A stretch of DNA of 64,000 bases from Octopus vulgaris (lineage: Eukaryota). Position 1 is the first letter of the stretch, and each line of letters opens with the position of its first letter. The DNA lies in NCBI GenBank assembly GCA_951406725.2, contig OX597820.1:23188001-23252000 (forward strand), given 5' to 3'. A model generated the notes under the pieces. It saw only the letters and a list, made by a program, of their open reading frames with translations. It searched no databases and was not told the DNA's origin. A program made the position numbers and the translations under genes. This document shows, one piece after another, positions 3,374 to 59,964 of this stretch.

Positions 3374-3499
3374 TTATCGGCAATGCTTTGACCTCGAAGG
3401 AGAATCAGGAATTGTCGTTCGTGCTATTGGGACAGCTGTCACATTATCGAAATCCTTAGTGCTATCTACATCTCCCATGGGGCTTTCACCTTTCAAAGA
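3374..3499 (+). CDS. C2CD5: C2CD5 coding exon C
   Basis: tttcAG acceptor and GTAAGT donor. (G)YRQCFDLEGESGIVVRAIGTAVTLSKSLVLSTSPMGLSPFK(D/E) matches C2CD5 YLQCFDLEGESGLVVRAIGTA. Phase 2 to 2. Confidence 0.95.
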
Positions 3500-11904: not shown

Positions 11905-12430
11905 CGGAAATCAGAAACCATGTTGGGTGTCAGTCAGCAAGTCATTTTCTTCAAGGAAGGTGATTAGTTTTCTTCTGACTATTCGTTCCATGACCTTGCT
12001 GATGTGCAAGGTCAAAGAGATAGGTCTGTAGTTTTTGGCCTCTGCTCTACTACCTCTTTTATGAACAGGGTATATTTTACCCTCCTTCAGTTTTCTTAGA
12101 AGTTTGCCAGCTGGAAGGAAGCTCTGAAAGAGGGACTTGCTTACATGCTTTTAGAAGGATTGCTGGGAATCCATCGGGGCCAGTAGCTGAGTTTGAGTTC
12201 ATTTCATCTATAGCCCTTATTACATCGTCTTCCTTTATATTGATGTAATCAATCATCACTGCTTCTGTTTTTTTATCTGCAGTGATAAAAAAGTCAGTTG
12301 GATTGCTGACTTGCAAGTGTCCTAGGGGTGGAGTGAAAATACTTTTGAATTGCTTATTTAGTATTTCACTTATTCTCATTGGGTTTCCTGTTAGTGAACC
12401 ATCTTTTTTGAGGAGTGGCCCTATCCTGCA
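11905..12430 (-). pseudogene. Decayed non-LTR retrotransposon ORF2 fragment (CR1/L2-like, start of the RT region)
   Basis: IGPLLKKDG..ISEILNKQFKSIFT..ATGPDGFPAILLK, then after a frameshift IYPVHKRGSRAEAKNYRPISLT..SKVMERIVRRKLITFLEENDLLTDTQHGF. Confidence 0.9.
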
Positions 12431-12458
12431 GTGCACTGAAGCTGCCTATATGTATGTA

Positions 12459-17859: not shown

Positions 17860-17889
17860 GAAATTTGATTTAATCCGCCGCCAATTCAG
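17860..17889 (+). CDS. C2CD5: Candidate 30-nt alternative microexon of C2CD5
   Basis: Long U-rich tract plus cacaAG acceptor. Frame-preserving phase 2 to 2, encoding (E)KFDLIRRQF(S/R). The donor AG|GTTGAA is weak; an alternative in-frame donor follows 17895. Confidence 0.4.
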
Positions 17890-37889: not shown

Positions 37890-38730
37890 AGCTAAAAGTT
37901 ATTTCCTTATGATTTTGCCTTTCATCTCCGTGGGGTTTATAAAGTACCAGTAAAGTACCGAGGTCAGTAGAATTGATTAATCCTTTCCCCACCGAGTCTC
38001 TGGCTGTGTGCCTAAATCATAAATAATTTAAGACACCAAGCAGGTAGAATCATCAAAGCTTTGGAAAAAAATGCTTTGCAGTATTTGTACTGACTCATAT
38101 TCTGAGTTCAGATCCTGCCATGGTCAACTTTGCCTTTCATCCATAGGGCATTGATAAAATACAGTAGTCGCGAAAACTGGGGTGATATTACCAATTAAGC
38201 CCCTTTCCTTAAAATTGCTGGCCTTGCATCAAAAATTGAAATCATTGTTAATATTAGTAGTAGTTAATAATTAGTAGTAGTCAGGCAATGAGCCAGCAGA
38301 ATCGTTAAATCGCTGGACAAAATGCTTTGCTGTATTTCTTCAATTTTTACATTCTGAGTTCAAATTCCTCTAAGGTCGACATTGCCTTTTATCCTTTTGG
38401 GGTCAATGAAACAAGTACTAGTTGAGATCTGAGTACTGGGGTCAATGTAATCAACCAAAAGTGGAGGCCTTGTGCCTATAACAGAAAGGATCATTATTAT
38501 TATTATTAAGGTGGTGAACTGGTAGAATCGTTAGCATGCCAGGCAAAATGCTTAGCAACATTTCGTGTGTCAGCACTTGTGGGTTTAGATCTCACCAAGG
38601 TCAACTTTGCTTTCATCCTTTTGCAGGTCGATAAATTAGAACCAGTGAAACACTGGGGATGATGTAATCAACTTAACCCCTCCCTCAAAATTTCAGACCT
38701 TGTGTCTTTAGTAGAAAGGATTATTATTAA
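37890..38730 (+). mobile_element. Array of family B SINEs (3 full copies plus 1 partial)
   Basis: Same unit as 5368-6490, head-to-tail. Confidence 0.8.
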
Positions 38731-39225
38731 TTTCTCCTTTTGTGTTCTAACTGCAAATCTTGGTGGATGGGGGGGGGGCTCTCTAGAAGGTAATCATAAT
38801 GAAGTTCTGAGGTAAATTTAATCAACTGATCTGTCCCCAAATTTGTGGCTTTGTAACCAAATATTAAAAAAAAAAAAAATTCAATAACCCAAGGTAGGTA
38901 GCATTTATCTTGTGTTTATTTTTGTTTTTTTTTCCATTCTTTTTTATTTCATTTTTTTTTTTCTTTTTTTTTAAACCTTGTTGCATTTTTTATTACATTA
39001 AACGAACATTATTTTTTTCCTTTGTTTATTCCTTTAGCAGTCTAAAGGCTTCTGGAAGAAGGCCCACCCCACCATATACCGTGCTGTAGTGTCCCGTAAA
39101 TCCAAACCTGCGTTAGTAAATGACCATTCTGTAATCAGTTTCCACAGCCTTCTCTCACCTTCTTCTTCGTTAATTTTCTTAATTACTACTATGGCGTTTC
39201 TTGTTTTTTCTCTCTTCTGTTGCAG

Positions 39226-40127
39226 TAAACGGCATGTGAAATTTCAGTCACCTGCTACCTCATCTCCTAGGCGTGCAGTACTGATGCAGTCTACACCACC
39301 TGCATCTACATCCACTACGAGTCTTACGGCTAACAATAACACTACTGTCTCTACTAACACTAGTACCACTACAACTACAACTATTGCTACTACTGCTACT
39401 ACTACTATTTCTACCACTACCACTACTACAACTGCTGTCTCTTCTACCTGCCCGCCTTCCCCTCCTTCTCCACCACCGCCTCCCCCACTCCCTCCACCTC
39501 CACTGCCTTTGCCCCCTCCGCCGTCTTCTTCTCTACCTCCTCCGCCATCCCCTTCGAACCTACCACCTCTCCCTCCCCCTCCGTTGCCTCCACCGCCGGC
39601 AGACTTCTCCAACGAATCCGAACCCGACACCGAGTCCGAGTCCACTTCTCTCGCCCCGCTCTTGCCTCCGCCTCCGCCTCTTCCCCCTCCTCCACCGCCG
39701 CCCCTCCCGCCTCCGCCTCTGCCTTCCCAACACCCCAAGCTGTCCCACTTTCACCACCAACAGCAACACCTCCTCCACCACCACCACCACCACCATCACC
39801 ATCATCATCACTACCAGCAGCACTCGTCAGTGGACCGAGATCGGGACAGGCCAATGTCTCCGCTTGCCCAACCTCGATCACAGCACGCGTCTCCATGCTC
39901 CACCCCTCCCGTGGTAGCAACTTGCCACAGACACACAGAACAAGAACCAGACAACTCAATATTTACCTTCCCTTGCAGCTCTCCTCTTCCCGAAGACATC
40001 ATCACTCCCTCCTCCCCGACCATTAACCAGTCTGGTGGCCTCAAATCGTCCACGTCACCTGCTAAATGCTCCAGTACAGCTATCCGACGCCGGTCTTCAG
40101 ACTCAGACTTGAGTACCACTCCAAAAG
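39226..40127 (+). CDS. C2CD5: C2CD5 exon D, long form (poly-Thr/poly-Pro/poly-His linker)
   Basis: Polypyrimidine tract plus tgcAG (39224-39225), phase 2 compatible with exon C. The frame is open to donor AAG|GTAATA at 40128 and ends RRRSSDSDLSTTPK(G), matching C2CD5 RQSSSSDTDLSLTPK. Confidence 0.65.
39979..40127 (+). CDS. C2CD5: C2CD5 exon D, short (probably ancestral) form
   Basis: Acceptor atttaccttcccttgcAG (39977-39978), phase 2. (D)SPLPEDIITPSSPTINQSGGLKSSTSPAKCSSTAIRRRSSDSDLSTTPK(G) is similar in length and end motif to the vertebrate segment IPFNED...SSSSDTDLSLTPK. Confidence 0.85.
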
Positions 40128-40420
40128 GTAATAATAATAATGCAATAATCACAAATATGAATCACTCTAATACGTATTAACCCTTGAAAAGCAAAAAAAA
40201 AAAAAAAAAAAAAATTATGAGGAAAAGACTAAACAAGGAAGAAATGAGATTTTCTTTTTTTTTTTCTTTTGGCTAATTTAACCAAACCATTTGATCACAT
40301 TTGTTTTAATTTTTGCTTCTTTTTTCCTCAATATTAATAATGATGGTTTCTTTTGTTGGTCACAAGGGTTTTACTGTTACTACTATTATTAGTACTGCTA
40401 CTAATAATAACAATAGTAAT

Positions 40421-49328: not shown

Positions 49329-49355
49329 AAGTTTCTCCAGGCCCGCCTCCTCCAG
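49329..49355 (+). CDS. C2CD5: 27-nt microexon of C2CD5 (EVSPGPPPPG)
   Basis: Branch-like tattaac, tttttcAG acceptor and strong CAG|GTGAGC donor. Symmetric phase 1 to 1, fitting between exons D and E. GC-rich island in an AT-rich intron. Confidence 0.75.
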
Positions 49356-59695: not shown

Positions 59696-59842
59696 TCTCG
59701 CTCCTCTCCGTATTCCTCTCTTCCACCGAACACACATCTCCCCTCCCTGACAACCTTTCATTTTTAGTGTTTTATATTTGTTGATGCCTTCATTTTGTCT
59801 TTAGTTAAGTTGAATTTTGGCTTGATTTGCTGTGACTCGCAG

Positions 59843-59964
59843 GGGGTAGTCTGACAGGAAGCAGTGGGAGTGGGAGTGGAACTGGAGTCCTGAGTGGAAT
59901 TTCTGGGAGAGCGGCAGGACACAAACCAGGGATGCCGCAACAACAGCCAACCATTGACATGTTG
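59843..59964 (+). CDS. C2CD5: C2CD5 coding exon E (Gly/Ser-rich)
   Basis: ctcgcAG acceptor and TTG|GTAAGC donor. (G)GSLTGSSGSGSGTGVLSGISGRAAGHKPGMPQQQPTIDML, phase 1 to 0. Positionally equivalent to the GSGS..QQ segment before the conserved E(F/Y)PF block, which was not found in this window. Confidence 0.85.

What the first reader, a model, noticed from the sequence alone, without database searches (positions are those of the whole stretch)
39226..40127. Ladder of three in-phase acceptors could add a 251-aa poly-Thr/poly-Pro/poly-His insert to C2CD5
Seen: AGs ending at 39225, 39930 and 39978 are all phase 2 and share the donor at 40128. The exons would be 902, 197 or 149 nt, adding 251, 16 or 0 aa. 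The extension uses mixed Pro codons, is CpG-rich unlike the surrounding intron, and has an acidic spacer (DFSNESEPDTESES) between two polyproline blocks. Known: such tracts bind profilin, EVH1, SH3 and WW domains, and C2CD5 acts in vesicle-plasma membrane trafficking. As I recall it, the vertebrate linker is short. Inference: a lineage-specific isoform that could couple C2CD5 to actin regulators.
Basis: partly seen in the sequence, partly recalled or inferred. Interest (0 to 1): 0.72.

Follow-up and report, generated by a model that had tools for sequence, protein, structure and literature searches.

The report
Octopus C2CD5 hidden 251-residue splice insert
An octopus membrane-trafficking gene (C2CD5) splices to a second site 753 bases upstream in one of the transcript sets examined, which would add a 251-residue, likely unstructured stretch whose start is nearly identical in cuttlefish and is predicted to dock a phosphatase; such optional inserts are a known kind of splicing, and the proposed third splice site found no support.

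Summary
The window is octopus C2CD5, and the finding's arithmetic is right. The distal acceptor is real: run X9 joins the exon ending at 3499 to both 39226 and 39979 (39226 junction in 1 of 4 runs). No junction at 39931 was listed in any of 7 runs, so the ladder has two rungs.

The 753-nt extension behaves as coding DNA. Its frame is open (5-13 of 3000 shuffles), 6 of 8 natural differences are synonymous (p=0.014), and a cuttlefish model matches 20 of its first 21 residues. Actin-regulator binding is plausible but untested.

Against: several runs cross 39225 unspliced. X9's listed downstream path uses an acceptor that is out of frame unless a nearby weak donor is used. The cuttlefish model drifts out of frame later. 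Automated annotation may already hold this isoform.

Verdict: a real alternative 3' splice site, likely regulated; a new variant of a known kind.

The parts
3374..3499 (+). Upstream C2CD5 exon (end of the first YbjQ-like domain); its phase-2 donor splices to 39226 and to 39979
   Evidence: tblastn with P0001; Pfam PF23025 profile end, below cut-off on this exon alone; the loose ends of X9 and X8 are its last 30 nt
17860..17889 (+).
   Evidence: Encoded in P0007-P0010; an 11-residue counterpart in P0013/P0017
39148..39225 (+). Distal acceptor: 78-nt AG-free zone, branch-like motifs at -52 and -43, pyrimidine tract, CAG
   Evidence: junction 3499>39226 in an X9 contig; a 1-nt deletion at 39204 in organism D lies here, outside the exon
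39226..39978 (+). 753-nt optional exon extension, 251 codons: conserved basic start, Thr tract, Pro block, acidic spacer, Pro block, His tract, Arg/Asp-Pro tail
39230..39253 (+). Predicted PP1-docking RVxF-type motif (insert residues 2-6) overlapping a PP4-type FxxP (residues 6-9); CDK-type site at residue 13; all present in cuttlefish P0004
   Evidence: Pattern scans; consensus definitions from passages of PMC6406801 and PMC7776573; binding not tested
39351..39436 (+). Imperfect trinucleotide array encoding the Thr tract
   Evidence: TRF; Thr tract also in P0004
39452..39724 (+). Two Pro-rich blocks around an acidic spacer
39752..39816 (+). His-rich tract with a run of 12 His (39776-39811)
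39929..39930 (+). Proposed middle acceptor; weak and unsupported
39979..40127 (+). 149-nt core exon (proximal acceptor 39978, donor 40128)
   Evidence: 100% to P0001 residues 264-312; junction 3499>39979 in X8 and X9
49329..49355 (+). 27-nt Pro-rich microexon B
   Evidence: P0001, P0003; X9 loose end at 40127
59805..59964 (+). Next exon, with two acceptors: 59843 (in frame) and 59805 (38 nt longer; stop at 59852-59854 unless a GT at 59846 or 59849 is the donor)
   Evidence: Loose ends in X22, X23, X8, X9

Best explanation
This is an alternative 3' splice site in octopus C2CD5: the exon ending at 3499 splices to 39979 or to 39226, and the longer choice, likely tissue- or stage-regulated, would add 251 likely disordered residues that are predicted to bring in a phosphatase-docking motif and proline-rich binding sites. 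Shown: both junctions in one run, an open frame, synonymous bias, and a near-identical start in cuttlefish. Inferred: the insert sits in the linker between YbjQ-like domains 1 and 2, so it would loop out without disturbing the fold. The conserved basic start would bind PP1 (or PP4 through the overlapping FxxP), and the neighbouring CDK-type site could switch that binding off. The Thr tract would be a spacer. The Pro blocks would offer weak multivalent sites for EVH1 or profilin partners. The long isoform would thus turn a Ca2+/lipid-sensing trafficking protein that partners the kinase CDK5 into a scaffold carrying both kinase and phosphatase at membranes.
For: X9 contig 39226-39745, whose loose end is the last 30 nt of the exon ending at 3499, across a 35.7-kb GT-AG intron. 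Its depth is 27.4; the implied short-junction depth is 10.9; the sum, 38.3, is close to the core depth of 39.2 (contig depth is a rough measure). Raw RNA of organism D covers the extension (X22: 8.5 just inside the exon, 1.0 upstream of the AG, 9.9 in the core). Frame open in 5-13 of 3000 shuffles; 6 of 8 differences synonymous in frame (expected 0.31, p=0.014) against 1 of 8 in each other frame. The only indel listed lies upstream of the AG. Cuttlefish P0004 matches 20 of the first 21 residues, starting at the first full codon; score 94 against a shuffle maximum of 47, 0 of 2000. A strict RVxF pattern arises in 135 of 20000 shuffles of the first 26 residues and is absent from the three short isoforms scanned. 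The insertion point (P0001 263/264) lies between Pfam YbjQ_2 matches. Mammalian C2CD5 co-precipitates with CDK5 (PMC6751209, PMC6335402, passages) and with AP2, clathrin and dynamin (10.1101/793000, passages).
Against: The 39226 junction is listed in only 1 of 4 runs of the clean lay; the loose-end table was swamped by repeats (208 rows not shown). X1, X5, X21 and X23 run unspliced across 39225, up to about 38963, and X8 has a low-depth contig just upstream of it. In X9 the piece 39808-39978 is missing and the core contig is not broken at the expected merge, so continuity in that run rests on depth sums and on other runs. X9's listed downstream path (microexon B, then 59805) is out of frame unless a weak donor at 59846 or 59849 is used. 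The cuttlefish model leaves the octopus frame after the first Pro stretch; reading it back into frame was not significant (8 of 9, reached by 33 of 200 shuffles). No full-length protein carrying the insert came back from three homologue searches or the representatives search. RVxF and FxxP are short, common motifs, and no binding was tested.
Confidence: 0.6

Rival explanations
1. The long isoform is real, but only its first 20 or so residues matter; the Thr, Pro and His tracts are slippage-grown filler kept in frame, with no partner of their own.
For: Residue-level identity with cuttlefish is confined to the first 21 residues. Tract lengths differ, and P0004's insert has no Leu-Pro4 and no His run in its annotated frame. 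The tracts are imperfect triplet arrays.
Against: 5 of the 6 differences listed in the Pro region from 39487 to 39709, plus 39547, are mostly synonymous third-position changes, which argues for amino-acid constraint there. The order Thr then Pro is kept in cuttlefish.
Confidence: 0.25
2. The main RNA here is unspliced at 39225: a retained 3' end of the 35.7-kb intron or an internal first exon starting near 38.9 kb, giving pre-mRNA or a product without the C2 domain; the spliced long form is a side product.
For: Unbroken X1 and X5 contigs from about 38963 through 39225; X21 and X23 reads across it; zero depth at 38745-38855; in-frame ATGs at 39191 and 39284.
Against: ATG 39191 is put out of frame in organism D by the 39204 deletion (all 3 of 3 and 4 of 4 reads), and ATG 39284 is Leu in cuttlefish. 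X1 pieces end at genomic T and A tracts on both sides (38964-38972, 40193-40214), as pre-mRNA, internal priming or DNA would. Cuttlefish similarity starts exactly at the acceptor. A hole in contig cover proves nothing.
Confidence: 0.12
3. The long form is a regulatory, non-productive or truncated product: paired with the 59805 acceptor it stops 110 nt before the next junction, giving NMD or a short C2-YbjQ-tail protein.
For: In X9 the only spliced downstream contig listed (depth 34.7) goes through microexon B to 59805. 59805 also appears in X8, X22 (4 reads against 4 for 59843) and X23 (5 against 6). First stop at 59852-59854.
Against: High steady-state share is not typical of NMD targets (general knowledge). 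GT at 59846 or 59849 would restore the frame. Bases 59839-59842 were not checked against RNA. 59805 is also used with the short form (X8), so it is not tied to the insert.
Confidence: 0.12
4. The His run and the low-complexity tail send the long isoform to nuclear speckles or other condensates rather than to actin.
For: Run of 12 His; His repeats are tied to speckle localisation in human proteins (PMC2644819, title and start of abstract only); mammalian C2CD5 acts in a CDK5-PP4 nuclear repair pathway (PMC6751209, passages).
Against: No His run in the annotated cuttlefish frame; the protein keeps a lipid-binding C2 domain.
Confidence: 0.08

Closest known systems
C2CD5 / CDP138 / KIAA0528 (C2 domain plus YbjQ-like domains)
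   Same: Window exons are 92-100% identical to O. sinensis P0001 and O. vulgaris P0005 where aligned. PF00168, PF23025 and PF23028 pass their cut-offs; PF23128 scores 23 against 27.
   Different: None of the octopus or argonaut proteins returned (P0001, P0002, P0005-P0011) carries the 251-aa insert. Only a C2-less cuttlefish model (P0004) holds its start. O. sinensis isoforms X1 and X2 were not returned and could be the +251 forms (1317 and 1307 aa; untested).
Alternative 3' splice sites and tissue-regulated exons that add disordered segments with short linear motifs (general class; recalled)
   Same: Two acceptors share one donor, the frame is kept, and the insert is low-complexity linker sequence with motifs.
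   Different: The acceptors are 753 nt apart, far more than is usual for alternative acceptors (recalled), and the linker also holds two microexons and another acceptor pair.
PP1-interacting proteins with an RVxF motif; PP4R3 EVH1 ligands with FxxP
   Same: Matches [K/R]x(0-1)[V/I]x[F/W] (PMC6406801 passage) and FxxP (PMC7776573 passages), in Pro/Ser/Thr-rich sequence, conserved in cuttlefish.
   Different: The motif is optional, switched in by splicing; binding is not shown; no second PP1 motif was looked for.
Ena/VASP EVH1 and profilin ligands (FP4-motif proteins such as PCARE and ABI1; formin FH1 tracts)
   Same: 8 Leu-Pro4 motifs, 3 runs of five or more Pro, and an acidic flank; Leu-Pro4 binding and acidic enhancement are described in PMC8789275 (passages).
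   Different: No aromatic FP4 motif, no PPxY, no FH2 or other actin-binding domain; tract conservation in cuttlefish is unclear.

Membership tests
C2CD5 | N-terminal C2 domain followed by YbjQ-like domains | tested here: met
   P0001: PF00168 3-110, PF23025 (3 stretches), PF23028; PF23128 below cut-off. Window exons map on P0001; the C2 exons lie outside the window.
Alternative 3' splice site (39226 vs 39979) | The same upstream donor joined to both acceptors in RNA | tested here: met
   X9 loose ends at 39226 and 39979 are both the end of the exon ending at 3499.
Alternative 3' splice site (39226 vs 39979) | The long form continues to the shared donor at 40128 | tested here: inconclusive
   No single record spans it. 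X9 lacks 39808-39978. X5, X8, X22 and X23 cover 39825-40008, and the X9 depths add up.
Three-acceptor ladder | Junction into 39931 | tested here: not met
   None listed in 7 of 7 runs laid (rare forms can be dropped); weak acceptor context.
Coding exon under selection | Open frame, synonymous bias, no frameshift inside | tested here: met
   for the octopus runs; 39746-39824 was skipped by the tool's repeat filter.
Coding exon under selection | Frame kept along the whole insert in a distant relative | tested here: inconclusive
   P0004 is in frame for about the first 100 residues, then drifts; no cuttlefish DNA was available.
PP1-interacting protein | RVxF consensus, conserved | tested here: met
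   Residues 2-6 in octopus and P0004; loose consensus from PMC6406801; the strict pattern used is recalled.
PP1-interacting protein | Direct binding to PP1, lost when the motif is mutated | not testable with these tools
Ena/VASP EVH1 ligand | FP4-type motif | tested here: met
   10 pattern hits, all Leu-type; 0 aromatic; 8 Leu-Pro4.
Ena/VASP EVH1 or profilin ligand | Binding to EVH1 or profilin | not testable with these tools
   Needs a pull-down.
WW group I ligand | PPxY motif | tested here: not met
   0 hits.
Formin | FH2 domain beside the Pro tract | tested here: not met
   No Pfam family on the 300-aa exon; none but C2 and YbjQ on P0001.

The most novel reading that the evidence does not exclude
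A coleoid splicing switch converts C2CD5, a CDK5 partner in vesicle traffic, into a kinase-phosphatase-actin scaffold. One acceptor choice adds a conserved overlapping PP1/PP4 docking site gated by a CDK site, plus Ena/VASP and profilin tracts. It sits in a linker with four combinatorial splice choices, used in a tissue-specific (perhaps neural) way.
Probability: 0.2. Interest if true: 0.7.

Novelty: new variant of a known kind. Interest (0 to 1): 0.47.

Why it matters
It corrects the gene model of a conserved trafficking protein in a model cephalopod. It shows a 753-nt alternative acceptor hidden inside what looks like microsatellite DNA; such exons are easily lost to repeat masking. If the docking motif works, it gives a direct test of how C2CD5, a CDK5 cofactor whose mechanism is described as unknown (PMC6751209 passage), is tied to phosphatases, and an example of splicing adding a signalling module in coleoids. 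It does not overturn a general principle.

Tried and rejected
No whole genome is held for the window. No listed holder run is on record as RNA; raw RNA runs came only as additions. The first lay at 88% likeness was swamped by repeat reads. Homologue searches with the insert's start found nothing at E<=10, not even P0004, so they lack power. The representatives search gave 3 unrelated repeat proteins. The ESM Atlas gave no usable hit. BLASTP with composition correction missed the conserved start. An AlphaFold model of P0001 from a 10-row alignment was useless (mean pLDDT 25.9) and is not used. Reading the later cuttlefish residues in a shifted frame was not significant in 3 of 3 segments (33, 100 and 199 of 200 shuffles reached the score). 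One search had one-base slips for microexon B and the 59843 exon, corrected; a notebook entry gives 39 nt for the 59805 shift, and the right value is 38. A count of deviations by codon position inside the tracts was left undone, so that line of evidence is open. A CpG-island promoter reading was set aside because CpG o/e equals that of other exons. The original CDP138 paper is not held. The Iso-Seq annotation in the supplement of PMC9699675 gave only 100 characters of text and may already hold this isoform. Three look-ups of earlier findings showed nothing.

Full report
Gene and place. The window holds the middle of octopus C2CD5. A search with the end of the exon in question returned four clusters: O. 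sinensis isoform X4 (P0001, 100% over the core exon), Argonauta, a Logan protein and a cuttlefish model. tblastn places exons at about 255-420, 1064-1122, 3374-3499, 39979-40127, 49329-49355 and 59843-59964. P0001 has PF00168 and YbjQ-like domains. The exon in question encodes part of the linker between the first YbjQ-like domain (ending near residue 246) and the second (from 361). The insertion point is residue 263/264.

Observation. But 11 of 41 AGs in 39000-40127 are in phase, so being in phase is not special. By context, 39225 is strong: 78 nt without AG, 24 pyrimidines and 18 T in 30 nt, and two branch-like motifs. 39978 is moderate. 39930 is weak: an AG 13 nt upstream, 6 T, no branch-like motif. 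The CpG excess (o/e 0.83; 0 of 140 intron windows reach it) equals that of three of five other exons and comes mostly from Pro codons.

RNA. Of 24 runs listed I laid 7: X1, X5, X21, X22 at 88% likeness and X22, X23, X8, X9 at 97%. The contig runs are only guessed to be RNA; X21-X23 are RNA-seq of a related organism, about 6% of each read. In X9 a contig starts exactly at 39226 and another at 39979, and both carry the last 30 nt of the exon ending at 3499. A join across a 35.7-kb GT-AG intron means spliced RNA (inference). Depths in X9 add up: 27.4 long plus an implied 10.9 short against 39.2 for the core, a rough long share of 0.7 (the tool warns that contig depth is a poor measure). X8 shows 3499>39979. 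No run lists a junction at 39931, and X1, X5 and X8 contigs cross it. The 39226 junction is listed in 1 of 4 runs; the loose-end table was swamped and could not show it.

RNA results against. X1 and X5 contigs run unbroken from about 38963 across 39225, and X21 and X23 reads cross it (X23 depth 6.4 upstream against 3.0 inside the exon). X22 steps from 1.0 to 8.5 across the AG without a listed junction. So an unspliced form exists: pre-mRNA, retained intron end, internal priming between the genomic T and A tracts, or an internal start. The last is weakened because the in-frame ATG at 39191 is shifted out of frame in organism D by the deletion at 39204, and the ATG at 39284 is Leu in cuttlefish. 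In X9 the stretch 39808-39978 is absent and the core contig is unbroken. I think this is assembler pruning beside the His repeat (inference from recalled assembler behaviour), but continuity in that run is not shown. Downstream, X9's spliced contig goes through microexon B to 59805, 38 nt upstream of the annotated acceptor. That gives a stop at 59852-59854, 110 nt before the next donor, unless a GT at 59846 or 59849 is used, which would restore the frame. A full-length protein with the insert is therefore inferred, not shown.

Coding constraint. The frame has no stop; block shuffles leave it open in 13, 5, 9 and 7 of 3000. Of the 10 differences, I dropped two outside the insert (39172, 39997). 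Of the other 8, 6 are synonymous in this frame (expected 0.31, p=0.014) and 1 of 8 in each other frame. Adding five gives 9 of 13 (p=0.005), though some of those come from the looser lay. The only indel listed is upstream of the AG; 39746-39824 was skipped by the repeat filter. The cuttlefish model P0004 matches 20 of the first 21 insert residues from the first full codon on (score 94; 0 of 2000 shuffles above 47), then has a Thr tract and the start of a Pro tract. This model lacks the C2 domain and later drifts from the octopus frame. Reading it back into frame was suggestive at best (8 of 9, reached by 33 of 200 shuffles) and null in two other segments. The octopus-cuttlefish split is old (about 270 million years, recalled), which makes the conserved start meaningful.

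Mechanism. The conserved start is an RVxF-type motif (residues 2-6) overlapping FxxP (6-9), with a CDK-type site at 13, all kept in P0004; the strict RVxF pattern is absent from the three short isoforms scanned. RVxF is the commonest PP1-docking motif, and phosphorylation can block it (PMC6406801, passages). FxxP is read by the PP4R3 EVH1 domain but is frequent by chance (PMC7776573, passages). The strict pattern (recalled) appears in 135 of 20000 shuffles of the first 26 residues. The Pro blocks hold 8 Leu-Pro4 motifs and 3 runs of five or more Pro beside an acidic spacer, a context that can bind Ena/VASP EVH1 (PMC8789275, passages); there is no aromatic FP4, no PPxY, one class I and no class II SH3 site. 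Mammalian C2CD5 binds CDK5 (PMC6335402 and PMC6751209, passages) and endocytic machinery (10.1101/793000, passages). My committed reading (0.6): a regulated acceptor switch adds a disordered arm that recruits a phosphatase, with proline-rich partners as a second, weaker function. The splice event and coding status alone I put near 0.85. All binding is predicted. Tissue regulation is inferred only from differences between unlabelled runs.

Novelty. No paper in the library holds both 'octopus' and 'C2CD5'. The 30 of 199 C2CD5 papers listed, the 15 of 22 on C2CD5 and splicing and the cephalopod microexon search showed no such isoform in titles or abstract starts. One human study lists primers for an alternative C2CD5 exon (PMC12558363, one passage). 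[quoted passage not shown] RefSeq isoforms X1/X2 were not returned and could be the long forms (1317 and 1307 aa by arithmetic). So the isoform may sit in automated annotation, undescribed. The vertebrate linker length was not checked. The class, an optional disordered insert with linear motifs, is well known; the 753-nt acceptor distance, the cuttlefish-conserved docking motif and four splice choices in one linker make this a good but not startling case. Verdict: new variant of a known kind, interest 0.47.

Noticed in passing
window 17860-17889: 30-nt microexon present in several octopus isoforms, with an 11-residue counterpart in Logan proteins P0013/P0017; an X5 contig entering at 39976 fits its junction to 39979 (inferred).
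   Followed up: partly
window 49329-49355: 27-nt Pro-rich microexon, included in X9 and skipped in X8, X22 and X23; also optional among annotated isoforms.
   Followed up: partly
window 59805-59854: Frequently used acceptor 38 nt upstream of the annotated one (X8, X9, X22, X23). It gives a premature stop unless a GT at 59846 or 59849 is the donor, which would make a short in-frame alternative exon with two adjacent Cys. Unexplained.
   Followed up: partly
window 38915-39040: A very strong-looking tandem acceptor (AG 39037/39040, 136 nt AG-free) out of phase with the 3499 donor; it would stop at 39087-39089. A low-depth X8 contig starts exactly at 39038. Possible poison acceptor.
   Followed up: partly
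window 38963-40190: X1 contigs are unspliced and end at a genomic T tract on the left and the 22-A tract on the right, as internal priming, pre-mRNA or DNA would give.
   Followed up: no
window 39547: A>G (synonymous) in nearly all reads and contigs of the runs that cover it; likely an allele or error of the window's assembly rather than editing.
   Followed up: no
window 38600-38729: End of an interspersed repeat with 14 other matches listed in the window (75-85% identity).
   Followed up: no
window 12077-12445, minus strand: 122-codon stop-free stretch that looks like a LINE reverse-transcriptase-region fragment (resemblance recalled, not tested).
   Followed up: no
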